DNA of 64,000 bases from Planctomycetota bacterium (GTDB lineage: Bacteria > Planctomycetota > Planctomycetia > Pirellulales > Pirellulaceae): NCBI GenBank assembly GCA_963204915.1, contig CAUJHS010000083.1:10130-74129 (forward strand). The letters are read 5' to 3'. The notes beneath the pieces are model-generated. The model did no database searches and had not been told where the DNA came from. It was given only the letters and a program-made list of their open reading frames with translations. Positions 24,077 to 60,113 of this stretch are shown here, piece by piece; the stretch's first letter is position 1; every line of letters starts with the position of its first letter. A program made the position numbers and the translations under genes.

Positions 24077-27000
24077 TCACTTGGGCCGCAAGGGAGGCAG
24101 TACCGCCGTGAGAGACAGCGAAACGGCGGCGTCGCTACCAATTACGGGAAGTTGGAAAACAGCCTGGAGGCGGCGGGGAGTATCGAGCAAGATCGCCTCG
24201 CCGCTCACCAGTACGTGCTGTACGGAACGATTGGCGGCGTCGTCCGCGCCGCCGATGTAGTTCTGAAGCCAACGCTGCAACAATTCTTGACACGTCTTGG
24301 GGTCGTCGTGACACCGTAGCCAGGAACTCGCTAAGAGAACGAGGTGCTGCATGACGCGCGCCGCGGCCAAGAGCGGCGTCGCGGAAATGGCATGAAGGTG
24401 GTGCAGCGATCCTTGCGACGCCTTCAAAGTGAGCAGATTCACGGACGCGCCGGTTTCATTCGCGGCGCCTGTCGAAGGGCGAAACCAACCGTTTCGGGCG
24501 AACGAATCGGCCGCCTCGATCGCCAATCGCCAGATAGAATTAATCTCCCCACGTTCGCCTCCTTGATTCGCGAACGCCTCGTTGGACTTCGTCAAGGTTA
24601 AGATCGCGAACTGGAACGCTGGATCGACGCCCGCGGCCTGCCAGGCCGGTCCGAGATGCGAAGTTGTTGCTGGCAGATTGTGCGGCAATTCCTCCCTGCG
24701 ATCCTTACCGATCCACGCCGGCGCGAGTTCAACCACCACAGGACAACACATCGCGGCGGCGGCTCGCGCCAAATCGAGCAACAGTTCGCCGCCTGGCGGA
24801 TCGGGAGTAATGGGAAAGTCCGCAACTAACAGTCCTGGAGGCGTTCGTTGGGCGTGTCCCGCCAGGTACAAAGTTTGATAAAGGCGAGTTTCGTGAAGAG
24901 CCGATGCTCCGCGGAGATCCGCCTGCAATTCATCACGGCACACGTTCAGCATGCGAACCCGCAAGAGCGCCCCAGTCTCGGCTTGCGAGACGAGTTCATG
25001 CAGACCCCGCCACGCCGGAAGATTGCGCAGCGCATTCTCAAGCGAGAGACCGGGCTGTAGCTCCGCAAAACGTTCACCCAGCGAGTCGCGATCTACGTCG
25101 CGCCGCCGCTGCTCCCACGAAATCGCGCCTTGGCAAGTTGTTTCTCCCTGCGGTCCGCGAGAAAAATCCGCTACGGCGACAATCGTGAATGGCAATTCAA
25201 CGCGTTCGATTGCGCCGGACTCGTCAATCGGCACAAACATGCCCACACGAGGGGCGCGCACACGTTGAAGTCGCGAGGCGATCGACGCGCGTCCCGCCCT
25301 GTGCTCGGCATCCTTGGGGGACGATTGTTTCGCGGGGGCGGCGATGCTGGGGGCAAGCGGCGACGACTCGTCAAGCGGCGGCGTCAAGGTCTCTGTCGGC
25401 TCCTGAGTTTCGGGCAGTGGGGTTTTGTCCGCATGACCACCTTTCCCGTGCGTAAAGAGGCCGGCCAACCGGCCGAAGAATCCGCCGCGGCGAGGAGGCG
25501 CGGCTTCGCGCGAGGCGCTACGCCACATGGGCGGCGAGATTGCACCACGCGGCGCTGAGATCATGCCGTCCGAGGCTTTCGAATCGAGGGTAGGGGAGAT
25601 TTCGCTGGCGCCCTGACGGCGAGGCGCGGCCGCGTCCGTGTCGGTCACGCTTTCCGGCGTTTCATACGTCGCGGCAAGGCGCTGGAACTCGCTGCGTGCG
25701 AGGTTCCTAGGCGGCAAGCCGCGCACTGGATCACTGGGGAACGGCGTTTGCCAGTAAACGGGACGAATCCAGTCGCGGCGGTTCAGTGAGAGTGCGAATT
25801 CGCATTCTTCCTGCACCAGCCGCGAGTTCATGGCGTGCGCCGACCAGAAAAGCTGAAACACATCGGCGCCGCGAATTAGCTCCTGCAACTCTTGACCAAT
25901 CCGCCCTTGTGCGCGCAGCGCGCGGCACTCAGATAGATATTCATCGCCCAAGACCCGCGCGTAGTTTTCGAACTGGTGCACGATCGACCGATCGTTCTCT
26001 GCAAAGGCTGGGTAGATGCGGCGAAACCGGCGAGCGGCCACCGTTTCAGTTTGAGCTGCGCTTCCATCATCGGGGGCGACCGCCTCGACGCGAAAAGCAA
26101 GCGGAATCTCGGCGATCAAAATACTTCCCAGAAAGACGCTCATCCGGCCCTGGATACGTTGGCTTTCCCGAGCCGCCGGCGCCCGCATGCGAAACTCCTC
26201 GCGATGCACCGATTCACGCCACATAAAGGTGCGCTGCGGCGGATTGAATTCGATGCCTCGGGCGGTGGGGAGGAATGTCAACTCGCCTTCATGGGGAATC
26301 GGCTCACTGCTGTCTTGCCGGACATCAGCGTAGTCCCCGACCTGTTCGCCCAAGATGCGCTCCGCCTGACGTTGGATTTCCTCCAGAGGATCCGGTTGGT
26401 CGGATCGTGCATCCTTGGGAAGTTCGGCCAAATGGGCGAAAGCCAGAAGCAAATACCATCGCGCGGGCTGCACCGATTTGGGCCGAAAAACCGTGAACTG
26501 CACATTGTCGTCGCAAGCGCGGTCGAACGATTGGAGCAAATCGGGCCGTGGCGGCGGGGGGGCAAAACCGACGAGAGGCGAAATGTGCGAGGTCCGCCGC
26601 GCCAGCGCCGCGTGCAACGCCTCCGCCAAGTCACGGGCCGTCGCATACCGATGGGCGATTGACTTGTGCAGGCATCGTAAACAGATTTCCTCCAGATCGC
26701 GGGGGATCCGATCGTCGATCATCCGGCAGGGCTTCGGCTCGCGATGCTCGATCTGCTCAAGAACATCCTGCAAAGTCTTGCCAAAAAAGGGACGACGACG
26801 TGTCAGCAGCTCATACAGCACTACGCCCAAGGCCCAAATGTCGGTGCGGCCGTCCATACAATGCGCCTCGCCGCGCACCTGTTCGGGCGCCATATAAGCA
26901 GGCGTGCCGGAAATCTCCCCACGTCGCCAGGCCTGTTCGTCCTCGTGCAAAGCCAGGCCGAAGTCGACCAAACACGGTTCGCCCGAGGGCTGCAAAAGAA

Positions 27001-27943
27001 TGTTGGCCGGCTTGATGTCGCGATGTACGAGCCCGTGCAGATGGGCATGATGCACAGCCTCCGCCACAGCGGCGACAATCCGCGCCGATTCGGCGAAGGG
27101 CAGCGGCCCGGCTTCGCAATGGGTCTTCAGGTCGACGCCTTCAATCAGCTTCGACGCCATAAAACAGTAGCCGTCGCTGGTTCGCCCGGCATGGTACACC
27201 GGCACGATGCCTGGGTGGTCCAGCTGGGCCAAGCGGCGCGCCTCGGCTAGATAGGCTTGAATCTCTTCCTCGGTGGCGGCCAGGCGGCGATGCGGCACCT
27301 TAATCGCCACGCGTCGTTCTAACACAAGATCGAACGCCCGATAAACGACGCCGAACGCCCCTTGTCCTAACAGAGCTTCGAGGCGGTAGCCCGGAATCTT
27401 AGGAACGAAGTCCTCGCTGTCGTCCTGCCGATCCGCAAGCGGCGAGTGGCCTCCGCCCTGTTCCGGCGCGTCAAGAAGACGAGTTTCATCGGCGGAAGCA
27501 AGCCTCAATTTGCGAGAATGCGAGGCTCTGCCAAGAACATGACGAAGCTCATCGCATGCCGCCGAAGGAAGCATCGAAAAGCGCGCGAGGAAGGCCTCCA
27601 CCTCCACGCGTTCGCCGTGCTGCTCACGATAACCGAACTCTTCAAGAATCAACCATCCGATGTGCCACGTTTCGCTCGCCAGCGCGGGACACGCCGCCAG
27701 ATAGTCTTCGACCAAACGGGGACGTTCTCCTCGCCATTGACAATGCTGATCAATCAGGAACGCATCGCCCCAGTCCCGCGGGGTTGCAGCGGGAAAACCT
27801 CTCAAATACGCGATTACGTCGGGCGGCCCGGTGAAGCGGTCACACAATTCGCAGTACCCCTGCGCGATCACCCCGCGCGGCGGTTTTTCAAGCCACAAGT
27901 CCAGGGATTCGGGAAGCATGGATGACGAATTGTCGGGCGTCAC
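24077..27943 (-). CDS. 1288-aa multidomain protein in one ORF. Parts: N-terminal domain; Ser/Thr kinase ('LGQGAFGVVYRA', 'VAIKV', 'HRDIKPANILL', 'DFGLA', 'GTPAYMAPE'); TIR-like domain (~25650-26000; 'DVFQLFWSAHAMNSRLVQEECEFAL'); Pro/Ser/Thr-rich linker; C-terminal type-VI-secretion sheath-like module (~24080-25270) comprising TssB/VipA-like ('VELPFTIVAVADFSRG...RRRDVDRDSLGERFAELQP') fused to TssC/VipB-like ('LPAWRGLHELV...LRVRMLNVCRDELQADL...LYQTLY...PPGLLVADF...AAAAMCCPVVVELAP...SFARNGWF...LLQRWLQNYIGG')
   Basis: Continuous ORF in the track; motif-level alignment to kinase subdomains and to conserved blocks of VipA and VipB. Confidence 0.85.
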   Translation of the reverse strand: MTPDNSSSMLPESLDLWLEKPPRGVIAQGYCELCDRFTGPPDVIAYLRGFPAATPRDWGDAFLIDQHCQWRGERPRLVEDYLAACPALASETWHIGWLILEEFGYREQHGERVEVEAFLARFSMLPSAACDELRHVLGRASHSRKLRLASADETRLLDAPEQGGGHSPLADRQDDSEDFVPKIPGYRLEALLGQGAFGVVYRAFDLVLERRVAIKVPHRRLAATEEEIQAYLAEARRLAQLDHPGIVPVYHAGRTSDGYCFMASKLIEGVDLKTHCEAGPLPFAESARIVAAVAEAVHHAHLHGLVHRDIKPANILLQPSGEPCLVDFGLALHEDEQAWRRGEISGTPAYMAPEQVRGEAHCMDGRTDIWALGVVLYELLTRRRPFFGKTLQDVLEQIEHREPKPCRMIDDRIPRDLEEICLRCLHKSIAHRYATARDLAEALHAALARRTSHISPLVGFAPPPPRPDLLQSFDRACDDNVQFTVFRPKSVQPARWYLLLAFAHLAELPKDARSDQPDPLEEIQRQAERILGEQVGDYADVRQDSSEPIPHEGELTFLPTARGIEFNPPQRTFMWRESVHREEFRMRAPAARESQRIQGRMSVFLGSILIAEIPLAFRVEAVAPDDGSAAQTETVAARRFRRIYPAFAENDRSIVHQFENYARVLGDEYLSECRALRAQGRIGQELQELIRGADVFQLFWSAHAMNSRLVQEECEFALSLNRRDWIRPVYWQTPFPSDPVRGLPPRNLARSEFQRLAATYETPESVTDTDAAAPRRQGASEISPTLDSKASDGMISAPRGAISPPMWRSASREAAPPRRGGFFGRLAGLFTHGKGGHADKTPLPETQEPTETLTPPLDESSPLAPSIAAPAKQSSPKDAEHRAGRASIASRLQRVRAPRVGMFVPIDESGAIERVELPFTIVAVADFSRGPQGETTCQGAISWEQRRRDVDRDSLGERFAELQPGLSLENALRNLPAWRGLHELVSQAETGALLRVRMLNVCRDELQADLRGASALHETRLYQTLYLAGHAQRTPPGLLVADFPITPDPPGGELLLDLARAAAAMCCPVVVELAPAWIGKDRREELPHNLPATTSHLGPAWQAAGVDPAFQFAILTLTKSNEAFANQGGERGEINSIWRLAIEAADSFARNGWFRPSTGAANETGASVNLLTLKASQGSLHHLHAISATPLLAAARVMQHLVLLASSWLRCHDDPKTCQELLQRWLQNYIGGADDAANRSVQHVLVSGEAILLDTPRRLQAVFQLPVIGSDAAVSLSLTAVLPPLRPK

Positions 27944-36883: not shown

Positions 36884-39800
36884 ATGTTTGGCCATCATTT
36901 TATTAGCTATTCCTCGCTGGACGGGCTGGACCTGGCGTTGCATCTGCATGACGCGTTGACCTCGGGCGAGCCGCCGTTGCCGGTGTGGTTGGATCGGCAT
37001 GAGTTGCGAGCCGGTTCGCCCCGGTGGGACGCCCAGCTCGACGATGCGCTGCGAAGCTGCGCCAGCCTGATCTTCCTGATGACGCCCGACAGCGTGGAGC
37101 ACCAGTCAGAGTGCGCCAACGAATGGTCGCGGGCGATGCGTTACAAGAAACCGATCACGCTGGTGCTAGGCGACCCCGCGGCGGCGCCGCCGTTCGCCTT
37201 TGAACGTAGGCAGTACATCGACTGTTCGCACTCGTTCCAGGCCGGCGTGTCCGCCTTGCGCAAACATCTGGAGTGGCTGAAAACTCCGCCAGGCATTTTG
37301 CAGGAACTGCAATTCCGCCGCGAAACAGCGCTGCGCGACTTGCGCCGAGCTCAGCGCGACCCGCTGATCGATCCAACGCGCGTCGCACGCATCGAGGCCG
37401 AGCTGAACGAACTGGATCAGCAGATCCACGAGCAAGAAGAGATTGTGGCCGATCCTGCCGCCGCAGCGCGACGGGTCGAGAACAGCATTGCCTTGGGGTT
37501 GGAGCGCGAGCGGCAACAAGCCGGCTCGGCCATGGCGCCGCGTACGAAGTTCATCAATCCGCCGCCGGGGCTGGCGCCGGAGTATTTTCAGGACCGCTAC
37601 GTCGAAACGAAGTTGATTGCCGAGTTCCTGCAGAACGACTCCCAACGGTTGATGACCCTGGTGGGACGCGGCGGCGTGGGCAAGACGGCTCTCTCGTGCC
37701 GGCTGCTCAAATCGCTTGAGTCCGGCGTACTGCCGGACGACCTGGGAACTTTGTCGATTGACGGCATTGTGTACCTCAGCGGCGTTGGCTCACACAAGAT
37801 CCAAACCGCGAACCTGTTTGGCGACTTGTCTCGCCTGCTGCCACACGACGCCGCAGCCAAAATGGAGGCGTTGTACAAAAACGCCCATGTGGGCATTCGC
37901 GCCAAGCTGGAAGCCCTGCTTGATGTGCTGCCGCCGGGACGAGTTGTGGTCCTGCTGGATAACTTCGAAGATGTGGTCGATCCACAAAACCGCAAATTGT
38001 GTGACCCTGATCTCTTCGAAGCATTGCAAGCCTTGTTGCAGTTGCCGCATCATGCGGTCAAGCTCGTGTTGACAACGCGCGTGGCGGCGCTTGACCTGGC
38101 TCAAGTGCAGCCGGGGCGGCAAGCCCGCATCGACCTGGATGAAGGACTGCCGACGCCGTTTGCGGAGAATATTCTGCGCGCTATGGACGCGGACGGCAAA
38201 GTGGGCCTACGCGACGCTCCCGCCGCCTTACTGCGAGAGGCGCAGACGCGCACGCGCGGCTATCCTCGCGCGCTTGAAGCGCTGTTCGCGATCCTTTCGG
38301 CCGACCGGGACACCAGCTTGGGTGAGGTGCTGGCCCAGACCGAAGCTCTGCCCGAAGGCGTGGTCGAAGCGCTCGTGGGCGACGCATTCAGTCGCTTGGA
38401 CGCCGTGGCGCAGCAGGTGATGCAGGCGCTGGCGATTTACGGCCGTCCGGTCACGTCGAACGCCGTCGACTATTTGTTGCAGCCGTACCTTCCGAGCATT
38501 GACAGCGCCCGCGTGCTGGGCCGGTTGGTCAACATGTTACTCGTCCGTAAGGATGCGGGGCGGTATCACCTGCACCCGGTGGATGGGGCTTACGCTTTGA
38601 GCCGCTTGCCCGATGGAGAACCGGCGGATCACGTGGTGCAGCCGTTGCCCTATTCTCGCTATGCCTTGCTGCACCGCGGAGCGGAATACTTCCGCCAGGC
38701 GCGCAAGCCCGCCGACCAGTGGAAAACGCTAGATGACCTCTTGCCGCAACTGGCCGAGTTCGACCTGCGGTGCGCCAGCCAGGACTTTGAAACCGCGGCC
38801 CGGGTGTTGATCGAGATCGACTTCCAGTACTTGCGGCGGTGGGGGCATTATGCGTTGTGCGCCCAATTGCACGAACGCTTGCGCGATCAGTTGACGGATC
38901 CAGCCCTGGAAACCACCTGCGTGGGCAACTTGGGCATCGCCTATCGCGACTTGGGCGAGGCCGAGCGAGCGATCGCCTGTTTTGAACGAGCGCTGACGCT
39001 GGCTCGGCAACGTCGGGCGTTGTCGGCCCAGGCGGTGTGGTTGTGCAACATTGGAGCGACCTGCGATGCGTTGGGGCAAACGCAACGCTCGCTGCAATGC
39101 CACCAAGAAGCGCTCGTGATCGATCAAAAACTGGGTGACGAAGACGGCGTGGCGGTCGATCTGCATAATCTTTCGGGCCGCTTCGCCGAACTAGGACAAA
39201 CGGAACAAGCCCTCGCCGCCTGCCGCCGGTCGATCGAAATTGCCCGCCGCATGTATGCGCATAGCGCCAAAGGGCAACAGCCGCGCAAGGCCGATAACCA
39301 GCGTTACGCCGTCGCTCTGCGGCTAGGTACACTCGCGCGGCTGCTTGACGACGCTGGCGATTTTCCGCAAGCCATCGCGGCGGCCAAGGAGGGACTCCAT
39401 CTGGCGGAAGATTTCCACAGCCCGGAGATCAACACGCGCAATCGTTACTACTTGGGTCTGGCCCAGTTGCTGTTGGGCGAGTTCGACGCCGCCCGCGACA
39501 CGGTCGAAGCGGCGGCCCGGTACGACTTCCCGCGGTATAACCATCGGTTATTGGTGCTCTCCGGCTTGGTGCGGTGGCGCATGAGGCGTCAAGACGAGGC
39601 CGCCGCCTTGTTCGACGAAGCCGCCGCCGTCGCACGAAAGTTGACCGACCATTGTCCTAACTATTACGAAGCGCAAGAATCGCTGGCATTGGCTCAGTGC
39701 GGTCGATCGGCCTGTGGCCATGGCGACCACTGGAGTGAGGCCGAGCGGCTGTTTCGCCGCCTGCGGCAAATCAACGCCTTTCCGGGCAAAGTGAAGCGCA

Positions 39801-39889
39801 CACTCCAATTGCTCGACCAACTCGAGTCCCCGGAAACCGCCGCCGTGCTCGCCAAAGTTCGCCCTATCGCTCAAGGGCAAGCCGAGTAA
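36884..39889 (+). CDS. TIR-NB-ARC-TPR STAND NTPase (bacterial NLR-like): N-terminal TIR ('HHFISYSSLDG...SECANEW'), coiled coil, P-loop NB-ARC ('LVGRGGVGKTAL...VVVLLDNFEDV'), C-terminal TPR array
   Basis: Translation motifs; architecture typical of anti-phage TIR-STAND proteins. Confidence 0.85.
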   Translation: MFGHHFISYSSLDGLDLALHLHDALTSGEPPLPVWLDRHELRAGSPRWDAQLDDALRSCASLIFLMTPDSVEHQSECANEWSRAMRYKKPITLVLGDPAAAPPFAFERRQYIDCSHSFQAGVSALRKHLEWLKTPPGILQELQFRRETALRDLRRAQRDPLIDPTRVARIEAELNELDQQIHEQEEIVADPAAAARRVENSIALGLERERQQAGSAMAPRTKFINPPPGLAPEYFQDRYVETKLIAEFLQNDSQRLMTLVGRGGVGKTALSCRLLKSLESGVLPDDLGTLSIDGIVYLSGVGSHKIQTANLFGDLSRLLPHDAAAKMEALYKNAHVGIRAKLEALLDVLPPGRVVVLLDNFEDVVDPQNRKLCDPDLFEALQALLQLPHHAVKLVLTTRVAALDLAQVQPGRQARIDLDEGLPTPFAENILRAMDADGKVGLRDAPAALLREAQTRTRGYPRALEALFAILSADRDTSLGEVLAQTEALPEGVVEALVGDAFSRLDAVAQQVMQALAIYGRPVTSNAVDYLLQPYLPSIDSARVLGRLVNMLLVRKDAGRYHLHPVDGAYALSRLPDGEPADHVVQPLPYSRYALLHRGAEYFRQARKPADQWKTLDDLLPQLAEFDLRCASQDFETAARVLIEIDFQYLRRWGHYALCAQLHERLRDQLTDPALETTCVGNLGIAYRDLGEAERAIACFERALTLARQRRALSAQAVWLCNIGATCDALGQTQRSLQCHQEALVIDQKLGDEDGVAVDLHNLSGRFAELGQTEQALAACRRSIEIARRMYAHSAKGQQPRKADNQRYAVALRLGTLARLLDDAGDFPQAIAAAKEGLHLAEDFHSPEINTRNRYYLGLAQLLLGEFDAARDTVEAAARYDFPRYNHRLLVLSGLVRWRMRRQDEAAALFDEAAAVARKLTDHCPNYYEAQESLALAQCGRSACGHGDHWSEAERLFRRLRQINAFPGKVKRTLQLLDQLESPETAAVLAKVRPIAQGQAE

Positions 39890-40167: not shown

Positions 40168-40755
40168 CTATTGCGTCAGATCGGCGTTTCGCATGATCGT
40201 TTGGCCGGTGCGAACGTCCCGGAGGTAGATTTCGACAAACCCATCCGAATACCGTATGGCATGAGCCAGTTGTTGCGGCGAGCTGACCGCAACGCCGTCA
40301 ATCGAGTAAATGATGTCGCCGGGCTCAATCCCTATGCGAAACGCGGCGCTGTAAGGCGTAACATGGGTTACATAGACCCCGCGGCCGTCCCACGTCGCGG
40401 ACGTGGTTACTCCGAGAAACTTCGCTACCGGCGGCTGGACCGACGACGGCGGGTACCATACTTGCACCGACGGATACGTCGGTTGCACCGGCGGGTACAC
40501 CGGCTGAGCCGGCGGATACCAAGACGGGATCGACGGCACATAGGGGTCGCTAGACGCAGTCGGATCCGTGTAGCTTCCACCTGGTCGAAACGTATCGGAC
40601 GATGCCGTCGGATCCGACTTGTGCTGGCGTACACCTGGGGCGTGAACTTGGCCAAAGGCGCCGGCGGATTCTCGCCGCCAATTCTGTGCTTGAACCTGTT
40701 CCGTAGAAAGGGCAATGCCTCCGACTAACAACAGTAAACCGATCGTTCTCATCAC
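40168..40755 (-). CDS. Secreted PDZ-domain protein with Pro/Tyr-rich repeat region
   Basis: Signal peptide 'MMRTIGLLLLVGGIALSTEQVQA', C-terminal PDZ 'GVYVTHVTPYSAAFRIGIEPGDIIYSIDGVAV'. Confidence 0.7.
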   Translation of the reverse strand: MMRTIGLLLLVGGIALSTEQVQAQNWRRESAGAFGQVHAPGVRQHKSDPTASSDTFRPGGSYTDPTASSDPYVPSIPSWYPPAQPVYPPVQPTYPSVQVWYPPSSVQPPVAKFLGVTTSATWDGRGVYVTHVTPYSAAFRIGIEPGDIIYSIDGVAVSSPQQLAHAIRYSDGFVEIYLRDVRTGQTIMRNADLTQ

Positions 40756-41265
40756 AAAACACCTCGTGAACGGTGACCAATCCGATCTGCCTTGCGAGAC
40801 ATTCGCATGGCGTTCTCTTTAGATCATGACGAGTCAACGTTCAGGACAGACATCGAAAGTGCTTCATGCAATTTGCTGCGGCGACGATCTGCTCTAGATG
40901 TTTGTCCCGGCAGTAGATTCTTTCTGCGCGATGGATACTTTTCAGGCTGCCGAGCGTTTAAGTGACTACCAACGTTGATTGCGTCAGTTTTTGCAAATCA
41001 AGAAATTTTTGCGAACCAACGCAGGACAACAGCGTCTATATCTACAACACGCGACGAACAGGGTTGCGGCCTAAGAAATTTGAATACCAGTAAGTCACCG
41101 GATACGGAATCATGGCTTCATTACGGCTCAGTTTTACCCGGTCAATACTGACCGAACGATTTCGTGAATATGAGGATGGGACCGTGTCGCGAGACGCGAA
41201 TGCGCTCCCCTTGCATCCACGTCGGTGGTAACACTCGGCCGAACTAACGAAGCAACGTTGGCGAA

Positions 41266-41300
41266 CCCGGTGTTATCCCAAGAGTGACACCGGGTTTTTT
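41266..41300 (+). terminator. Hairpin CCCGGTGT/ACACCGGG (13-nt loop) followed by TTTTTT, ~30 nt upstream of the first tRNA of the array
   Basis: Seen in sequence. Confidence 0.45.
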
Positions 41301-41330
41301 CGTGTCAATTTGCAACGTTTGACCTACCGA

Positions 41331-41402
41331 TGGACTGGTAGCTGAGACGGTATAGCGCTGGCCTGAAGAGCCGGAGAGGAGGGTTCGAGCACCTCCCAGT
41401 CC
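41331..41402 (+). tRNA. tRNA-Phe (anticodon GAA)
   Basis: Acceptor GGACTGG/CCAGTCC, D-arm GCTG-AGACGGTA-TAGC, anticodon loop CTGAAGA. Confidence 0.65.
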
Positions 41403-41472
41403 ACTGGTTACGCATTTGGCAAAAGCACATGGATAACAACTGCGGTCGAGATACGCGCCTATACAACCAACG

Positions 41473-41547
41473 TCGGCTCGTTCGACTTCTGGTGAGGTCG
41501 CTGGTCTTTCAAGCCAGCTAGGTTGGGTTCGAATCCCACACGAGTCG
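41473..41547 (+). tRNA. tRNA-Glu (anticodon TTC), copy 1
   Basis: Acceptor CGGCTCG/CGAGTCG, anticodon arm CTGGT-CTTTCAA-GCCAG; T-arm has one mismatch. Confidence 0.55.
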
Positions 41548-41560
41548 CTGACATAACGAA

Positions 41561-41628
41561 TGGGCTTGCCGACGGGTCGGCGCTTTGACTTGCACTCAAG
41601 GCTTCAGGGTTCAACTCCCTGCATGTCC
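41561..41628 (+). tRNA. tRNA-Ala-like (anticodon TGC, G3:U70 wobble in the acceptor) with a compressed D-arm
   Basis: Acceptor GGGCTTG/CATGTCC, anticodon arm TTTGA-CTTGCAC-TCAAG, T-arm CAGGG-TTCAACT-CCCTG. Confidence 0.45.
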
Positions 41629-41702
41629 ACTGAACAATGAACAGCACTGGAGACGACGATGCAATCACTTAGTTGCTTGAAACGCATACCCATAGCCATT
41701 CA

Positions 41703-41774
41703 TGAGGCTGTGGTGTAGCGGCGGCACGGCGGACTTTTAATCCGTAAAGCGTGGGTTCGAATCCCACCGGCCTC
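41703..41774 (+). tRNA. tRNA-Lys (anticodon TTT)
   Basis: Acceptor GAGGCTG/CGGCCTC, D GTGT-AGCGGCG-GCAC, anticodon GCGGA-CTTTTAA-TCCGT, T GTGGG-TTCGAAT-CCCAC. Confidence 0.8.
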
Positions 41775-41780
41775 ACTTGT

Positions 41781-41853
41781 TCGGCGTGAAGCTCGCTGGT
41801 CCGAGCAGCGTCCTTATAAGACGAAGTTCGAAGGTTCGATTCCTTCCACGCCG
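41781..41853 (+). tRNA. tRNA with anticodon TAT (would decode AUA, Ile). Unusual in bacteria.
   Basis: Acceptor CGGCGTG/CACGCCG, D GCTC-GCTGGTCC-GAGC, anticodon loop CTTATAA, T GAAGG-TTCGATT-CCTTC. Confidence 0.55.
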
Positions 41854-41879
41854 ACTTGAAGGAGAAACGCCGAGGGGAT

Positions 41880-41957
41880 TGTGCCAGACAAGGTAAAGCA
41901 CCAAACGCTTCATCTGGTCGAAGGAGGTTCAATGCCCACCGATCCCGCTACTTGAAT
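41880..41957 (+). tRNA. tRNA-like element with an aberrant T-arm (GGAGG-TTCAATG-CCCAC); isotype unresolved
   Basis: T-loop-like motif and partial acceptor complementarity only. Confidence 0.3.
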
Positions 41958-42035
41958 AAGCACGGATGGTCGAATGGCATGACCCCGCTTTCGTAAAGCG
42001 GCTGCGTGCGTTCGATTCCGGGCGCCGACGTACTC
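41955..42035 (+). tRNA. tRNA-Thr-like (anticodon arm CCGCT-TTCGTAA-AGCGG, anticodon CGT) with a non-pairing T-stem
   Basis: Anticodon hairpin clear; acceptor and T-arm not canonical. Confidence 0.3.
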
Positions 42036-42085
42036 GTTGGTCGCGGTGCTCTTTGATCTTTGACAATCTGGTTAAGCCAACAAAA

Positions 42086-42157
42086 GGCGTCCATGGTGTA
42101 GTGGGAACCCATCTGCTTGCCATGCAGAAAACGCGAGTTCGATTCTCGCTGGACGCT
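42086..42157 (+). tRNA. tRNA-Gly (anticodon GCC)
   Basis: Acceptor GCGTCCA/TGGACGC, anticodon TCTGC-TTGCCAT-GCAGA, T GCGAG-TTCGATT-CTCGC. Confidence 0.8.
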
Positions 42158-42166
42158 CTTCATGTA

Positions 42167-42241
42167 TCAGGGTGTGGGAAAGCCTGGCTACTCCGCGTGC
42201 TTCGGGAGCACGAGATCGTCGGTTCAAATCCGACCATCCTG
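42167..42241 (+). tRNA. tRNA-Pro (anticodon CGG)
   Basis: Acceptor CAGGGTG/CATCCTG, anticodon CGTGC-TTCGGGA-GCACG, T GTCGG-TTCAAAT-CCGAC. Confidence 0.7.
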
Positions 42242-42254
42242 ACTAATTTTTTCT

Positions 42255-42330
42255 TGTGGGTCCTTTTTTGGTAAGGGAAGGCTCCGGTTCATCGCCTAGA
42301 CGTAAGTTCGATTCCTGTCTCTGGTCCTGA
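42255..42330 (+). tRNA. tRNA-like element with an over-long or aberrant T-region (…GACGTAAGTTCGATTCCTGTC…); isotype unresolved
   Basis: TTCGATTCC motif without a canonical stem. Confidence 0.25.
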
Positions 42331-42408
42331 GGTCGTCCTGAATTGGTTCAGAAACTTGCCGATGACCCCAGTTTATGGCGGACTGATTCCGATCAGTCGC
42401 CCTATGAA

Positions 42409-42492
42409 TGGAAGACATCTGGCTGGATGAGGAAACCGCCTTGAAAGCGGCTGGCGCTGATAACGCTTCAGGGTTCGAGTCCCTGGTCTTCC
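42409..42492 (+). tRNA. tRNA-Ser (anticodon TGA), type II with a long variable arm
   Basis: Acceptor GGAAGAC/GTCTTCC, anticodon loop CTTGAAA, variable hairpin, T CAGGG-TTCGAGT-CCCTG. Confidence 0.7.
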
Positions 42493-42503
42493 GCCTTGTT
42501 TGA

Positions 42504-42581
42504 AACAATCCTGTCGTCTGGCGGCGAAGGCGCCTGGTTTACACCCAGTCGATCGACGGTTCGAGTCCCTCCAGGACTACT
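42504..42581 (+). tRNA. tRNA-Val-like (anticodon loop TTTACAC, anticodon TAC) with a mismatched T-stem
   Basis: Acceptor AATCCTG/CAGGACT (6/7 pairs), anticodon CTGG-TTTACAC-CCAG. Confidence 0.35.
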
Positions 42582-42598
42582 TTGTGTTGAAGTTTAAA

Positions 42599-42673
42599 CA
42601 CCCAGATACGCCAACCTGGCAGAGCGGCTCGGCTCAGACCCGAGGGTTTGCAGGTTCAAGTCCTGCTCTGGGT
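42599..42673 (+). tRNA. Type-I (short variable arm) tRNA with anticodon CAG. Would read CUG (Leu), but it lacks the long variable arm of bacterial tRNA-Leu.
   Basis: Acceptor ACCCAGA/TCTGGGT, anticodon CTCGG-CTCAGAC-CCGAG, T GCAGG-TTCAAGT-CCTGC. Confidence 0.5.
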
Positions 42674-42686
42674 ACTGTTGTCGGTA

Positions 42687-42760
42687 TGGCTCGGTAGGCA
42701 ATCGGCAGACCACGCTGTTTCAAACTCAGTGATGCTGTGGGTTCAAATCCCACCTGAGCC
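42687..42760 (+). tRNA. tRNA-like; the anticodon arm is ambiguous (loop TTTCAAA or TTCAAAC; anticodon TCA or CAA)
   Basis: Acceptor GGCTCGG/CTGAGCC, T GTGGG-TTCAAAT-CCCAC; weak anticodon stem. Confidence 0.4.
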
Positions 42761-42774
42761 ATTGAAGAAAACTA

Positions 42775-42849
42775 TGTCCTCGTGGAGCAGCCTGGAGTGC
42801 TCGCTACCCTGTCACGGTAGAGATCGTGGGTTCAAATCCCATCGGGGAC
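42775..42849 (+). tRNA. tRNA-Asp (anticodon GTC)
   Basis: Acceptor GTCCTCG/CGGGGAC, D GAGC-AGCCTGGA-GTGCTC, anticodon CTACC-CTGTCAC-GGTAG, T GTGGG-TTCAAAT-CCCAT. Confidence 0.8.
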
Positions 42850-42954
42850 GCTGTGTCGAGAGGAACGACGACAGAAAAGTAACCATCCATGAGCGCTGGG
42901 CACGCATTCTCCCGTCCCGTGTTTGTTTGGCTGGTTGCGTTGCGCGGTGCTTTA

Positions 42955-43037
42955 TGCGTCGGTTGGGCATTGGCAAGCCTCAGTGGCTGTAATCCACCCG
43001 CCTTTCTGGCTTTGCAGGTTCAACTCCTGCCCGGCGC
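42955..43037 (+). tRNA. tRNA-Tyr (anticodon GTA), type II
   Basis: Acceptor GCGTCGG/CCGGCGC, anticodon GTGG-CTGTAAT-CCAC, variable hairpin GCC-TTTCT-GGC, T GCAGG-TTCAACT-CCTGC. Confidence 0.65.
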
Positions 43038-43054
43038 ACTTGAAGTGGTTTGTT

Positions 43055-43127
43055 TGGCGCGGTGCGATGTTGGTTTTGCAACGAGGCTTTCAATCTCGTC
43101 TACGCGGGTTCAATTCCCGTCCGCGTC
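43055..43127 (+). tRNA. tRNA-Glu (anticodon TTC), copy 2
   Basis: Acceptor GGCGCGG/CCGCGTC, anticodon CGAGG-CTTTCAA-TCTCG, T GCGGG-TTCAATT-CCCGT. Confidence 0.65.
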
Positions 43128-43140
43128 ACTTGGTATAACA

Positions 43141-43208
43141 ATGCAGGTGGGCAGGGTCCCAACCAGCCCTCATAAGGCCGGTCTCTCGGTTCGATTCCGT
43201 GACCTGCA
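43141..43208 (+). tRNA. tRNA-Met-like (anticodon CAT). A lysidine-modified Ile or initiator identity cannot be excluded.
   Basis: Acceptor TGCAGGT/ACCTGCA, anticodon loop CTCATAA; T-stem has one mismatch. Confidence 0.5.
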
Positions 43209-43267
43209 ATTTGGCAATCGCGCAGCACCGAACAAAGTAATGCGAACCAAGTAACGTCGTAATTGTA

Positions 43268-43342
43268 TGGCCGGGTACGCAAACAGGTAAAGCGAGCAGT
43301 TCGAGACGCTGCGATTTTGTGGGTTCGATTCCCACCCTGGTC
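43268..43342 (+). tRNA. tRNA-like with anticodon arm GCAGT-TCGAGAC-GCTGC (anticodon GAG, position 33 not U); isotype uncertain
   Basis: Acceptor GGCCGGG/CCTGGTC, T GTGGG-TTCGATT-CCCAC. Confidence 0.4.
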
Positions 43343-43429
43343 ACTTCCATCGTGGTGCAAGCGTTAGTATGCCCGATTCGTGGCGCACTGTGACCGTTGA
43401 ACATCGCTCCATCGCGATGAAACGTCTCT

Positions 43430-43500
43430 GGGTCTGTTGGTGTTGTGGCGGCACGCGTTCGTGGTAAGGACGAAGATCGGGTTCGATTCCCGGACGGACC
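43430..43500 (+). tRNA. tRNA-Thr (anticodon GGT)
   Basis: Acceptor GGTCTGT/ACGGACC, D GTGT-TGTGGCG-GCAC, anticodon CGTTC-GTGGTAA-GGACG, T TCGGG-TTCGATT-CCCGG. Confidence 0.7.
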
Positions 43501-43621
43501 TTTTGCCTGATTGATGGGCTGCTCGTTCAACGGCAGGACGCCTGCTTTGTACGCCAGGAGATCGGGGATCATTTCCTCGGCGGTCCACTCATCGCTAACT
43601 CGAAATTGGCAAAATTCGCAG

Positions 43622-43698
43622 TTTGGCTCGATGGTGAAACGGAAATCATTCCACCCTTCGAGCGCGGCGTTCTAGGTTGGAATCCCGGGCGAGCCAAT
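43622..43698 (+). tRNA. tRNA-like element: perfect 7-bp acceptor TGGCTCG/CGAGCCA and a T-arm with a mutated loop (TTGGAAT), but no foldable D/anticodon arms
   Basis: Seen in sequence. Confidence 0.3.
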
Positions 43699-43803
43699 CA
43701 AACTCGTTGAAGGAATGTGACGGGAAGCAAAGATAAACGTGGATATGCATACGGTGGTTCGATTTCTCGGCAGGGGGACTTAGCTGAGAGTTCGACAACG
43801 ACA

Positions 43804-43876
43804 GGTCCTTGGAGTGTGCCGGACAAGCACGCGACTGTGCGAAGGTCGAGGATCAGGTTCGATTCCTGACGAGGAC
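43804..43876 (+). tRNA. tRNA with anticodon GCG (would read CGC/CGU, Arg); non-standard for bacteria, which normally use ACG
   Basis: Acceptor GTCCTTG/CGAGGAC, D GTGT-GCCGGACAA-GCAC, anticodon CGACT-GTGCGAA-GGTCG, T TCAGG-TTCGATT-CCTGA. Confidence 0.5.
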
Positions 43877-44060
43877 GCTTTTCCCCTAATGGCGCCGCGA
43901 CGAATGAGATCGTTGGCCGTCTTTCTACCCGGAAGTATTGTGGAGACGTCGAAATTTTTGCCGTGTTATCACTTGGTTTGCTACCGCGTTGGGGAGAAAG
44001 ATTTTGGCAAATCGGAGGGGGCGATTATAATCGTGGCTCCTTCGGCAGGAGAGCACAATC

Positions 44061-58020: not shown

Positions 58021-58093
58021 GCCCCCTTCGTCTAGTGGCCCAGGACGTCGGGTTCTCAGTCCGAAAACAGGGGTTCGACTCCCCTAGGGGGTA
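58021..58093 (+). tRNA. tRNA-Glu (anticodon CTC), canonical, no CCA encoded
   Basis: GCCCCCTTCGTCTAGTGGCCCAGGACGTCGGGTTCTCAGTCCGAAAACAGGGGTTCGACTCCCCTAGGGGGTA closely resembles bacterial tRNA-Glu. Confidence 0.9.
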
Positions 58094-58154
58094 CTAGGTC
58101 GTCCATCGCAGCGATTTGCATTGTGTCGCTGCTAATTGCGGCAAGTGGAGTTTC

Positions 58155-59533: not shown

Positions 59534-60113
59534 GATTTAGCCCCTTCCCGTGTAGCTTATTCCAAACGGACCAAGTGAATTGAATAAAGTCCGGCGCTTG
59601 TCGTGTGTGACTTAAGGTTTTAATGGGTCGCCATCTGCGCTGGCGTTGCGTTTCACTACTTAGATTTATTTCGTTGTCGAGTCGAGTGTTGCGAGCGAGT
59701 GGATATGCCACGGAAAGTGTTCGAAAAATCCCTCCGGCGGCGAAGCAAATGGTGATCACGCGTCGAAGCACGGAGCGACGTTTAAGCCGGTTGAGGCTGC
59801 AGGGCTTCGCATGATGAGGCTGTGATGTAGGCCGAGACGATCGAGCCTCGGCGCGTACGTCAAGCCAACACCATGCGAGGCGCATGAGCGCTAACCGGCG
59901 GAATCTACGCGCTACAAGGAGCTTGTACGCGTTGCCATCTCAATGGAGGATACGCTATCCACATAGAAACCTCGACTTGCTCGGCAAGCCGACTACGTGT
60001 GCAGCGCACCTACAAGAACTGAGACGGCCGACCACGGCCTTGCTTGCCGCCGTTGGGCGGTGATGGTGGACGCCTGCGCGCCCTTCATGGAGCCGATTTC
60101 TCAATCGGCCGTC

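What the first reader, a model, noticed from the sequence alone, without database searches (positions are those of the whole stretch)
41331..43880. Tandem array of ~20 tRNA and tRNA-like genes on a lower-GC island
Within ~2.6 kb at least 20 cloverleaf-type elements follow one another on the same strand. Isotypes read include Phe, Glu x2, Ala-like, Lys, Gly, Pro, Ser, Val-like, Asp, Tyr, Met, Thr x2 and others. Spacers are 10-100 nt and no CCA is encoded. The segment 40.8-44.0 kb is visibly more AT-rich than the ~62% GC flanks, and a hairpin terminator sits just upstream of the first tRNA. High-density tRNA arrays are rare in bacterial chromosomes. Where they have been described they are usually horizontally acquired and often mobile-element or phage associated. 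An array of this size inside a Planctomycete-like chromosome deserves attention. It could supplement codon usage for a co-resident foreign element or counter a tRNA-targeting defence system, for example an anticodon nuclease. That is notable given the TIR/STAND genes a few kb away.
Basis: seen in the sequence. Interest (0 to 1): 0.75.

Follow-up and report, generated by a model that had tools for sequence, protein, structure and literature searches.

The report
Partly eroded accessory tRNA gene array
A 2.5-kb stretch of a Planctomycete-like chromosome carries 19 clear and 4 degraded tRNA genes in a row, an extra, mobile-type tRNA set of a kind already described in several bacterial phyla, so it is real but not new.

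Summary
ARAGORN finds 19 same-strand tRNA genes at 41332-43878, and 23 with relaxed settings. None encodes CCA, and a strong hairpin plus U-tract lies 34 nt upstream.

The "low-GC island" does not hold. GC steps down at about 40.5 kb and stays low to the window end. tRNA bodies are 59.5% GC; only the spacers are AT-rich.

The array is not a housekeeping cluster:
- Rfam tRNA scores are low: median 46 bits, 14 of 23 pass.
- Several members are aberrant, and tRNA-sized gaps hold remnants.
- The two Glu(UUC) genes resemble neither each other nor the host-type Glu(CUC) 14 kb away.

It shares hallmarks with transferred arrays, namely a phage-like metagenome contig (L115) and a Mycolicibacterium plasmid (L117). 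These hallmarks are tRNA-Leu without the long variable arm (CAG, CAA, GAG), Ile-UAU, Arg-GCG/UCG and a 68-nt CAU tRNA. Some are already published for mycobacterial clusters, and tRNA arrays are already listed for Planctomycetes.

No integrase, phage gene or att repeat flanks it, and no sigma-70-like promoter was found.

Best reading: a horizontally acquired, partly eroded accessory tRNA operon, normally silent or gated by the upstream terminator. A back-up role against tRNA damage is inferred only. It is a new member of a known kind, of moderate-low interest.

The parts
40753..41331 (+). 579-nt intergenic region between the divergent PDZ-protein gene (40168-40752, minus strand) and the first tRNA. 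It must hold any promoter of the array.
   Evidence: ORF translations and Pfam PDZ hit. GC 0.494. No sigma-70-like site at the scan threshold.
41090..41300 (+). Structured leader RNA candidate that ends in the terminator hairpin
   Evidence: Fold of 41090-41331: MFE -88.3 kcal/mol, z = -3.87, 0 of 200 shuffles as stable. No Rfam family at E<=10.
41263..41303 (+). Intrinsic-terminator-like hairpin (14 bp, 7-nt loop) plus U6 tract, 34 nt upstream of tRNA 1
   Evidence: Fold -22.3 kcal/mol, z = -3.75. No upstream + strand gene for it to terminate; the neighbouring gene is on the minus strand.
41332..41404 (+). tRNA-Phe(GAA), 73 nt, G37
   Evidence: ARAGORN; RF00005 53.6 bits; loop features
41475..41548 (+). 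tRNA-Glu(UUC) copy 1
   Evidence: ARAGORN; RF00005 43.5 bits
41562..41630 (+). 69-nt tRNA(UGC) with truncated D arm GCCGACGGGTCGGC and G3:U70 (Ala identity pair)
   Evidence: ARAGORN. No RF00005 match reported at E<=10. D arm matches the L115 69-nt Gln tRNAs.
41704..41776 (+). tRNA-Lys(UUU), best-scoring member
   Evidence: RF00005 67.4 bits
41782..41855 (+). tRNA-Ile(UAU), a rare bacterial isoacceptor typical of transferred clusters
   Evidence: ARAGORN; RF00005 53.0 bits; PMC6582537
41875..41948 (+). Degenerate tRNA-like element (CUU), 10 irregular stem positions, G33
   Evidence: ARAGORN relaxed only
41957..42029 (+). Degenerate tRNA-like element (CGU)
   Evidence: ARAGORN relaxed; RF00005 25.6 bits, below threshold
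42087..42158 (+). tRNA-Gly(GCC)
   Evidence: RF00005 62.4 bits
42168..42243 (+). tRNA-Pro(CGG)
   Evidence: RF00005 52.5 bits
42253..42327 (+). Degenerate tRNA-like element (CCG)
   Evidence: ARAGORN relaxed only
42410..42495 (+). tRNA-Ser(UGA), class II, 86 nt
   Evidence: ARAGORN; weak tRNA-Sec model hit of 32.2 bits
42507..42580 (+). tRNA-Val(UAC), mismatches in stems
   Evidence: RF00005 36.2 bits
42600..42675 (+). tRNA-Leu(CAG) without long variable arm (class I body), A73
   Evidence: ARAGORN; RF00005 47.8 bits; alignment A1
42687..42762 (+). tRNA-Leu(CAA) without long variable arm, A73
   Evidence: ARAGORN; RF00005 40.9 bits; A1
42776..42851 (+). tRNA-Asp(GUC)
   Evidence: RF00005 54.8 bits; 84-93% identical over 44-70 nt to phage tRNA-Asp genes
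42956..43039 (+). tRNA-Tyr(GUA), class II, 84 nt
   Evidence: ARAGORN; weak tRNA-Sec model hit
43056..43129 (+). tRNA-Glu(UUC) copy 2, not similar to copy 1
   Evidence: RF00005 36.5 bits; the pair is not among the top pairs, where the 25th pair is 0.66
43142..43209 (+). 68-nt tRNA(CAU) with truncated D arm, U1-A72, A73. Same type as in L115.
   Evidence: ARAGORN; alignment A2
43269..43344 (+). tRNA-Leu(GAG) without long variable arm; C33 instead of U33
   Evidence: ARAGORN; RF00005 44.2 bits
43430..43502 (+). tRNA-Thr(GGU), G32
   Evidence: RF00005 40.4 bits
43516..43588 (+). tRNA-Thr(UGU) with aberrant T loop ATCATTT
   Evidence: RF00005 34.0 bits
43624..43697 (+). Degenerate tRNA-like element (UCG)
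   Evidence: ARAGORN relaxed; RF00005 23.8 bits
43698..43804 (+). 107-nt gap with a T-arm remnant (CGGTGGTTCGATTTCT at 43752-43767), probably a decayed tRNA
   Evidence: Repeat family D4; sequence
43805..43878 (+). tRNA-Arg(GCG), last member, G32
   Evidence: ARAGORN default, clean stems; no RF00005 match reported
44004..44031 (+). Near-consensus sigma-70-type promoter (11/12) of the downstream C92 peptidase gene. It marks the right-hand end of the array unit.

Best explanation
This is a horizontally acquired accessory tRNA operon, a 'tRNA array unit' or L-array, now sitting bare in a Planctomycetota chromosome and partly eroded.

Shown:
- There are 19 well-formed and 4 degenerate tRNA genes in one orientation, 5-107 nt apart, with no periodicity and no recent duplication.
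- About a dozen members keep all hallmark tRNA positions.
- The array holds tRNA types typical of transferred arrays: tRNA-Leu CAG/CAA/GAG without the long variable arm, Ile-UAU, Arg-GCG/UCG, a 68-nt CAU tRNA and a 69-nt short-D-arm tRNA.
- Every 3' end lacks CCA and almost always reads N73-C-U.

Inferred mechanism:
- The genes are transcribed as one precursor starting in the 579-nt upstream region.
- Most transcripts stop at the strong hairpin-U6 just before tRNA 1, so the array is silent or weakly expressed unless read-through occurs.
- The precursor is cut by RNase P and RNase Z, and CCA is added enzymatically.
- The surviving members supply isodecoders for the host's commonest codons. Their bodies and anticodon domains differ from the housekeeping tRNAs.
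- They could therefore sustain translation when housekeeping tRNAs are depleted or cleaved, as under translational stress, toxin RNases or anticodon nucleases. This is the role shown for the Anabaena L-array and proposed for phage and plasmid arrays.

My estimates: identity as a transferred-type array about 0.85; still functional and conditionally expressed about 0.4.
For: - Array anatomy.
- Divergence from host type: the two Glu(UUC) genes are not among the more similar pairs, neither to each other nor to the host-type Glu(CUC) at 58021-58094. The 25th-ranked pair is 0.66. The host Glu has clean stems and 55 bits.
- Erosion: median RF00005 is 46 bits with 14 of 23 passing. The comparison arrays give 59 (L115) and 58.6 (L117), Mann-Whitney p = 2.6e-4. 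There are tRNA-sized gaps with T-arm remnants.
- Shared hallmarks: L115, a 46-kb phage-like contig, has a 28-tRNA array with armless Leu GAG/CAG/CAA, Arg-GCG/UCG, Pro-CGG, a 68-nt CAU tRNA and 69-nt short-D-arm tRNAs. The Mycolicibacterium plasmid pTY66_01 array has armless Leu CAG/UAA, next to HNH, TnpB and RNB genes. Alignment of the 8 armless Leu tRNAs keeps U8, A14, G18G19 and A73.
- Literature: a short-variable-loop Leu, Ile-TAT and Arg-TCG occur in expressed, transferred mycobacterial clusters (PMC6582537). L-arrays spread by HGT, are listed for Planctomycetes, and are stress-induced in Anabaena (PMC8421152, PMC4758250).
- Not syntenic: C92 homologues at 72, 70 and 60% identity have no tRNAs nearby. 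A spurious ORF across the array has no homologue among 5.8 billion proteins.
- Gating: hairpin at -22.3 kcal/mol, z = -3.75. No sigma-70-like promoter upstream, while the next gene has an 11/12 one.
- Trailer motif: N73-C-U in 18 of 23, P = 7e-19. It is shared with the host Glu gene, which argues that host processing shaped or selected the 3' ends.
- Codon match: anticodons read CGC, GGC, CCG, CTG, TTG and CTC, the host's top codons.
Against: - No mobile-element gene, integrase or att repeat lies within 64 kb, so transfer is inferred from tRNA types, not from context.
- The nearest relatives available are only about 72% identical in the neighbouring protein, and their gene order is already scrambled. 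Absence of the array there is therefore weak evidence.
- The full tRNA complement of the genome is unknown, so redundancy with a housekeeping set is shown only for Glu.
- Same-anticodon identity to L115 tRNAs (0.63-0.74) is barely above the background of 0.59.
- L115 was found by a pattern built on the Leu-CAG/Leu-CAA adjacency, so that shared feature is ascertained.
- Comparator arrays encode CCA; this one does not.
- No expression data exist. A terminator plus no visible promoter is equally what a dead locus would show. Members with C33, G32 or broken T loops may be inactive.
Confidence: 0.6

Rival explanations
1. Dead relic. The array is what remains of a phage or plasmid tRNA cluster. Its carrier genes have been deleted, it is no longer transcribed, and it is decaying neutrally.
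For: - 9 of 23 elements fail the Rfam threshold, and the scores are lower than in arrays still carried on mobile elements.
- Some members have a C33, G32, G33 or a broken T loop.
- tRNA-sized gaps hold T-arm remnants.
- No promoter was detected, and a strong terminator lies in front.
- No mobile-element genes are left.
Against: - About 12 members keep U8, GG, U33, R37, TTCRA and clean stems.
- The N73-C-U trailer is kept in 18 of 23, and U at +2 in 22 of 23. Neutral decay would not preserve this.
- The anticodon set still matches the host's major codons.
Confidence: 0.3
2. Ordinary housekeeping tRNA operon of this lineage, built up by accretion, vertically inherited and constitutively used.
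For: - tRNA bodies have host-like GC of 0.595.
- The 3' trailer matches the host Glu gene.
- Anticodons match major codons.
- The flanks are ordinary Planctomycete genes.
Against: - Rfam scores are low and several members are degenerate.
- Canonical class II Leu, Gln, His, Asn, Cys, Trp, Ile-GAU and Arg-ACG are all missing.
- The Glu genes are unlike the host-type Glu.
- No array was found next to C92 homologues.
- No consensus promoter was found.
- It shares oddities with plasmid and phage arrays.
Confidence: 0.06
3. Dedicated partner of the neighbouring TIR-NB-ARC-TPR (STAND) gene. The array would be either an antidote to a tRNA-damaging immune effector encoded in the same island, or a decoy set for it.
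For: - The TIR-STAND gene ends 1.4 kb upstream.
- A second TIR-containing kinase fusion lies at 24077-27943.
- tRNA arrays are discussed as anti-defence elements (PMC12803027, PMC10264068, PMC11555353).
Against: - A divergently oriented PDZ gene and a GC step separate the two.
- No anticodon-nuclease-type domain was found in the neighbours by Pfam or PADLOC.
- TIR effectors of STAND proteins usually degrade NAD+ rather than tRNA (general knowledge).
- No second locus shows the same pairing.
Confidence: 0.04

Closest known systems
L-arrays / trn operon of Anabaena sp. PCC 7120 (Santamaria-Gomez et al. 2021, PMC8421152)
   Same: - Both are long, non-periodic, same-strand arrays of about 20-26 tRNA genes, and both include aberrant members.
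- Both are supernumerary in character and normally poorly expressed.
- The phylum Planctomycetes is listed among those with L-arrays.
   Different: - No HNH homing endonuclease, RtcB or other RNA-repair gene lies nearby.
- A terminator hairpin sits in front, instead of the repressor-binding direct repeats mapped in Anabaena.
- No sequence or order similarity to the cyanobacterial arrays was tested or seen.
Horizontally transferred tRNA gene clusters / tRNA array units of mycobacteria and their plasmids and phages (PMC5966550, PMC6582537, PMC12803027; pTY66_01 locus L117)
   Same: - Both hold tRNA-Leu with a short variable loop, rare Ile-UAU and Arg-UCG.
- Their tRNAs differ from the chromosomal isoacceptors in the D, anticodon and variable regions.
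- Gene number and density are similar.
   Different: - The mycobacterial arrays encode CCA, score higher in Rfam, and sit on plasmids or phages with HNH, TnpB and RNB genes.
- Here there is no CCA, more erosion, a bare chromosomal site and a different phylum.
Metagenome contig FUIF01017248.1 (L115), a phage-like 28-tRNA array
   Same: - It has the same three armless Leu anticodons (GAG, CAG, CAA), Arg-GCG, Arg-UCG and Pro-CGG.
- It has a 68-nt CAU tRNA with a UGC...GCA-A acceptor, and 69-nt tRNAs with a GCCGACGGNTCGGC D arm.
- Its GC is high.
   Different: - All 28 tRNAs encode CCA and most score well.
- It also has Gln, His, Cys and Asn.
- It is flanked by small phage-like ORFs.
- tRNA-level identity to the window is only 0.63-0.74, and gene order is largely different.
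Phage tRNA clusters acting against anticodon nucleases (T5-like and others; PMC10264068, PMC11555353)
   Same: Both are dense sets of tRNAs whose anticodon-domain sequences differ from those of host tRNAs.
   Different: - Those clusters are on lytic phage genomes and are expressed during infection.
- This array is in a cellular chromosome with no phage genes.
- No cognate nuclease has been identified.

Membership tests
tRNA array unit (Tran et al. 2016, PMC4758250) | At least 20 tRNA genes in one region | tested here: inconclusive
   19 with ARAGORN defaults and 23 with relaxed thresholds. 14 pass the Rfam gathering score.
tRNA array unit (Tran et al. 2016, PMC4758250) | Density of at least 2 tRNA genes per kb | tested here: met
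   19-23 genes in 2547 nt gives 7.5-9 per kb.
L-array (PMC8421152) | Genes in the same orientation and close enough to be co-transcribed | tested here: met
   All are on the + strand with spacers of 5-107 nt. No strong internal terminators or promoters on the + strand beyond tRNA-stem look-alikes.
L-array (PMC8421152) | Not periodic; not built by local duplication | tested here: met
   TRF finds nothing. All pairwise identities are 0.70 or less, with a median of 0.59.
L-array (PMC8421152) | Patchy distribution among related species (HGT) | tested here: inconclusive
   No tRNAs lie near the C92 homologues at 60-72% identity, and the spurious ORF has no homologue. However, no close relative exists in the databases, and synteny is already broken.
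L-array (PMC8421152) | Supernumerary: duplicates anticodons of a complete housekeeping set | not testable with these tools
   Only 64 kb of the genome is available. Only one host-type Glu(CUC) tRNA can be compared.
Phage- or mobile-element-borne tRNA cluster | Flanked by phage, plasmid, integrase, transposase or homing-endonuclease genes | tested here: not met
   Pfam and PHROGs on the flanking ORFs and on the large ORFs across the window give none. No flanking att-like repeats were found.
Housekeeping tRNA operon | Canonical, high-scoring tRNAs with canonical isotype architecture (class II Leu) | tested here: not met
   The median is 46 bits and 9 of 23 fall below threshold. All three Leu genes lack the long arm.
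Stress-inducible tRNA operon (Anabaena trn type) | Induced on translational stress and contributes to survival | not testable with these tools
   Needs RNA and genetic data. Only a leader plus terminator is seen.

The most novel reading that the evidence does not exclude
The structured leader and terminator in front of the array would be a sensing attenuator. It would open an emergency tRNA set when housekeeping tRNAs are damaged or ribosomes stall. The armless tRNA-Leu family shared by Planctomycete, Mycolicibacterium-plasmid and phage-like arrays would be a conserved, LeuRS-chargeable design that escapes nucleases or toxins recognising class II tRNAs.
Probability: 0.08. Interest if true: 0.65.

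Novelty: new member of a known kind. Interest (0 to 1): 0.33.

Why it matters
It adds a Planctomycete example, bare in the chromosome and visibly eroding, to the known class of transferred tRNA arrays.

It shows that odd tRNA types recur across very distant hosts. These are tRNA-Leu without the long arm, a 68-nt CAU tRNA, Ile-UAU and Arg-GCG/UCG. That points to a common pool of mobile arrays and to some selective reason for these designs.

If the array proved inducible, it would be a second case, after Anabaena, of a bacterium splitting its tRNA genes into a housekeeping and a reserve set. As it stands it changes no concept.

Tried and rejected
- Genome-collection scan with the upstream PPK2 protein. 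The best hits were 63% identical Chloroflexi genes with no synteny and no arrays.
- BLASTN of the leader plus array against 50,697 phage and 72,556 plasmid records. It gave only single-tRNA matches (Asp, Pro, Phe, Ser) and no array-level homologue.
- Viral-contig pattern scan for the Lys-UUU/Ile-UAU adjacency. It returned only unrelated low-GC phages.
- The Leu-CAG/Leu-CAA pattern in viral contigs gave nothing.
- The L115 flanking protein in viral contigs had no relatives.
- Protein search with a spurious ORF spanning four array tRNAs, as a trick to find related arrays, found only itself.
- Look-up of another spurious ORF to recover a contig spanning the left junction found nothing on record. 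Short-read Logan contigs stop at about 40.2 kb and resume at 42.56 or 42.96 kb. I read this as coverage or assembly breaks and drew no conclusion.
- Rare-codon supplementation was rejected on codon counts.
- A link between the weak C92-like ORF in L115 and the C92 gene here was rejected: BLASTP E = 2.6, and the C92 gene is conserved without arrays.
- Shared gene order with L115 (Asp-Glu-Met, Thr-Thr) was judged no better than chance.
- An antiterminator pairing in the leader was looked for by eye. Only a 6-nt complement 160 nt upstream was found, which is not convincing.
- A T-box or other known riboswitch was ruled out, with no Rfam hit at E<=10.

Full report
**Observation.** ARAGORN with default settings finds 19 tRNA genes on the + strand between 41332 and 43878. 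Only two further tRNA genes occur in the other 61 kb. Relaxed settings add four degenerate cloverleaves at 41875-41948, 41957-42029, 42253-42327 and 43624-43697, giving 23. The Rfam tRNA model passes 14 of them at 34-67 bits. It scores two of the degenerate ones just below threshold, at 25.6 and 23.8 bits. The class II Ser and Tyr, a 69-nt UGC tRNA, a 68-nt CAU tRNA and Arg-GCG are called by ARAGORN only. Spacers are 5-107 nt and no gene encodes CCA. A 14-bp hairpin followed by six U sits at 41263-41297, 34 nt before the first tRNA. It folds at -22.3 kcal/mol with z = -3.75.

**Composition.** The claim of an AT-rich island between 62% GC flanks is not correct. In 2-kb bins GC is 0.58-0.645 up to 40 kb. 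It then drops to 0.54-0.58 and stays there to the end of the window. The array is 0.548 and the 20 kb downstream is 0.557. The tRNA bodies are 0.595 GC. The spacers (0.453) and the 579-nt upstream region (0.494) are AT-rich, like other intergenic stretches on that side. The array lies at a compositional step, not in an island. GC3 of genes is 0.73 to the left and 0.59 to the right. Which side is native cannot be decided from the window.

**Surroundings.** The true upstream neighbour is a secreted PDZ-domain protein on the minus strand at 40168-40752. The arginine-rich + strand ORF there is its antisense shadow.
- Further left lie a TIR-NB-ARC-TPR protein (36884-39889), PPK2, Ser/Thr kinases and an FHA-cyclase.
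- To the right lie a C92 (YiiX-like) peptidase, two ORFs without Pfam families, and large Planctomycete-type proteins (DUF6797, DUF7133, Laminin_G, cytochrome). There are also SUI1, an esterase, a Band 7 protein and others.
- Homologues of the C92 protein are named Planctomycetota, Pirellulales or Planctomycetaceae by their sources, so the host assignment is reasonable.
- The window has no integrase, transposase, homing endonuclease or phage structural gene, and no att-like direct repeats bracket the array.
- PADLOC hits to the kinases are generic kinase-domain matches. The TIR-STAND protein gives only weak TIR and TPR hits.

**The tRNAs themselves.** All pairwise identities among the 23 elements are 0.70 or less, with a median of 0.59. 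TRF finds no periodicity, so the array was not built by recent duplication. The two Glu(UUC) genes are not among the more similar pairs, neither to each other nor to the host-type Glu(CUC) gene at 58021-58094; the 25th-ranked pair is 0.66. That host gene has perfect stems and scores 55 bits.

About a dozen members keep U8, GG in the D loop, U33, a purine at 37, the TTCRA T loop and clean stems. Others deviate:
- C33 in Leu-GAG.
- G32 in Thr-GGU and Arg-GCG.
- A T loop ATCATTT in Thr-UGU.
- Truncated D arms in the 68- and 69-nt members.
- 6-14 irregular stem positions in the degenerate elements.

Several spacers are tRNA-sized, and one holds a T-arm remnant at 43752-43767.

Most striking, the three tRNAs with leucine anticodons (CAG, CAA, GAG) are 76 nt long and lack the long variable arm that bacterial tRNA-Leu normally has. 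Ser and Tyr in the same array do have it. The array has no Gln, His, Asn, Cys or Trp gene and no canonical Leu, Ile-GAU or Arg-ACG. It does have the rare Ile-UAU and Arg-GCG.

**3' ends.** The base after the discriminator is C in 19 of 23 and the next is U in 22 of 23. N73-C-U occurs in 18 of 23, against a CT dinucleotide frequency of 0.056 (binomial P = 7e-19). The host-type Glu gene has the same A-C-U. This is not what neutral decay of CCA would give. I infer that the 3' trailers are, or recently were, under selection for the host's CCA-less processing route (RNase Z plus CCA-adding enzyme). That route is general knowledge and was not tested here.

**Codon match.** In 14,059 codons from 23 window genes, the array's anticodons mostly read the most-used synonymous codons:

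| Codon | RSCU |
|---|---|
| CGC | 2.55 |
| GGC | 1.94 |
| CCG | 1.73 |
| CTG | 1.72 |
| TTG | 1.60 |
| ACC | 1.26 |
| CTC | 1.24 |

A minority read rare codons (ATA 0.07, GTA 0.38, TCA 0.39, GCA 0.41, ACA 0.48). The three leucine anticodons are exactly the three commonest leucine codons. Rare-codon supplementation is therefore not the logic of the set. It looks like a spare set for a high-GC genome.

**Relatives.**
- The nearest homologues of the adjacent C92 protein are 72%, 70% and 60% identical. Their contigs (L086, L087-L089, L090-L092) hold no tRNA genes. Gene order around C92 is already rearranged at that distance, so this is only weak evidence of patchy distribution.
- A spurious 148-aa ORF that runs across four array tRNAs has no homologue other than itself among 5.8 billion proteins.
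- BLASTN against phage and plasmid collections gives only single-tRNA matches.
- A pattern built from the Leu-CAG anticodon loop, a T loop and the Leu-CAA anticodon loop at class I spacing found one real match in 241 million metagenome records. This was contig FUIF01017248.1 (L115).

L115 carries 28 tRNA genes in 3.4 kb. They include adjacent armless Leu-GAG, Leu-CAG and Leu-CAA, Arg-GCG, Arg-UCG and Pro-CGG. It also has a 68-nt CAU tRNA with the same UGC...GCA-A acceptor as the window's, and 69-nt tRNAs whose D arm GCCGACGGCTCGGC matches the window's 69-nt tRNA. Its flanks are short same-strand ORFs with PHROG hits to a phage RNA-binding protein and a tail protein.

The tRNA array of Mycolicibacterium plasmid pTY66_01 (L117) also contains armless Leu-CAG and Leu-UAA. 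That array is flanked by HNH endonuclease, TnpB and an RNB ribonuclease. The eight armless Leu tRNAs align with invariant U8, A14, G18G19 and A73. From general knowledge, A73 and D-loop geometry rather than the long arm are the main LeuRS determinants in E. coli. These tRNAs could therefore be real leucine acceptors, but this is untested.

**Literature.**
- Tran et al. defined tRNA array units and listed Planctomycetes among phyla with a few of them (PMC4758250).
- Santamaria-Gomez et al. defined L-arrays, which spread by HGT and are supernumerary. They listed Planctomycetes among the phyla with L-arrays. They also showed that the Anabaena array is silent until translation is impaired and then aids survival (PMC8421152).
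- Behra et al. reported that transferred mycobacterial tRNA clusters contain a tRNA-Leu with a short variable loop, plus the rare Ile-TAT and Arg-TCG, and that the cluster tRNAs they tested are expressed (PMC6582537).
- tRNA arrays are now discussed as anti-defence devices (PMC12803027). Phage tRNAs have been shown or argued to evade anticodon nucleases and retron effectors (PMC10264068, PMC11555353).

Both the kind of element and its odd members are therefore known.

**State of this copy.** Rfam scores of the window's members have a median of 46 bits, with 14 of 23 passing. L115 (59) and L117 (58.6) score higher, Mann-Whitney p = 2.6e-4. Together with the degenerate members and remnant-bearing gaps, this indicates erosion since acquisition. 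The scan finds no sigma-70-like promoter in the 579 nt upstream. The same scan finds an 11/12 consensus promoter immediately after the array, for the C92 gene. The only notable signals in front of the array are a significantly structured leader (41090-41331, z = -3.87) and the terminator hairpin. That hairpin cannot belong to any upstream gene, because the neighbour is transcribed away from it. No Rfam family matches the leader.

**Interpretation.** The best-supported reading is a horizontally acquired accessory tRNA operon of the array-unit or L-array kind. It is now fixed without its carrier in a Planctomycetota chromosome, is partly eroded, and is kept silent or gated by the upstream terminator. 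A reserve function during tRNA depletion or cleavage is plausible by analogy with Anabaena and with phage tRNAs. It is supported here only indirectly, by the preserved core members, the selected 3' trailer and the major-codon anticodon set.

The main rival is a functionless relic. A housekeeping operon is unlikely, and a specific partnership with the neighbouring TIR-STAND gene has no support beyond proximity. The independent short-read contig L001 is 100% identical to the window and runs from inside the array into the right-hand genes, which argues against a chimeric right junction. The left junction was not independently confirmed.

**Verdict.** The element is a new member of a known class, so interest is moderate-low.

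Noticed in passing
window 60111-60184 (minus strand): A solitary 74-nt tRNA scoring 57.6 bits in Rfam. It has the leucine anticodon AAG on a class I body, G37, and two mismatches at the top of the acceptor stem. It is another armless 'Leu' tRNA outside the array, possibly a pseudogene or an integration-site remnant.
   Followed up: partly
window ~40500: GC steps from 0.61 (1-40 kb, GC3 0.73) to 0.556 (44-64 kb, GC3 0.59). The PPK2 gene on the high-GC side has its best genome hits in Chloroflexi (63%) rather than Planctomycetota (54-57%). One side may be a large acquired block with the tRNA array at its edge.
   Followed up: partly
window 24077-27943 (minus strand): A 1288-aa protein combines a Ser/Thr kinase domain, a weak TIR_2 match, and T6SS sheath-like VipA and VipB N-terminal domains. 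This is an unusual fusion.
   Followed up: no
window 41090-41300 (+): An orphan structured RNA region (z = -3.9) ends in a strong terminator and matches no Rfam family. It could be an independent small RNA rather than a leader of the array. Short ORFs of 27 and 39 codons overlap it.
   Followed up: partly
window 41332-43878, 3' ends of all tRNAs: The conserved N73-C-U trailer (U at +2 in 22 of 23) is also present at the host-type Glu(CUC) gene. It may be a lineage-specific 3'-processing signal.
   Followed up: partly
window 40447-40519: Three 21-nt tandem-like repeats (71% identity) lie inside the PDZ-protein gene. They encode its proline-rich repeats (YPPxQP).
   Followed up: no
L115 5224-8663 (FUIF01017248.1): This phage-like metagenome contig has 28 CCA-encoding tRNA genes, including three armless tRNA-Leu, two 69-nt tRNA-Gln and a 68-nt CAU tRNA. 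No relatives of its flanking protein were found in IMG/VR.
   Followed up: partly
window 40196-42963: Short-read (Logan) contigs from three runs of the same study end at 40196-40260 and resume at 42558 or 42963. The left half of the array is therefore missing from the contigs retrieved. The cause could be coverage, strain variation or assembler behaviour, and was not determined.
   Followed up: partly
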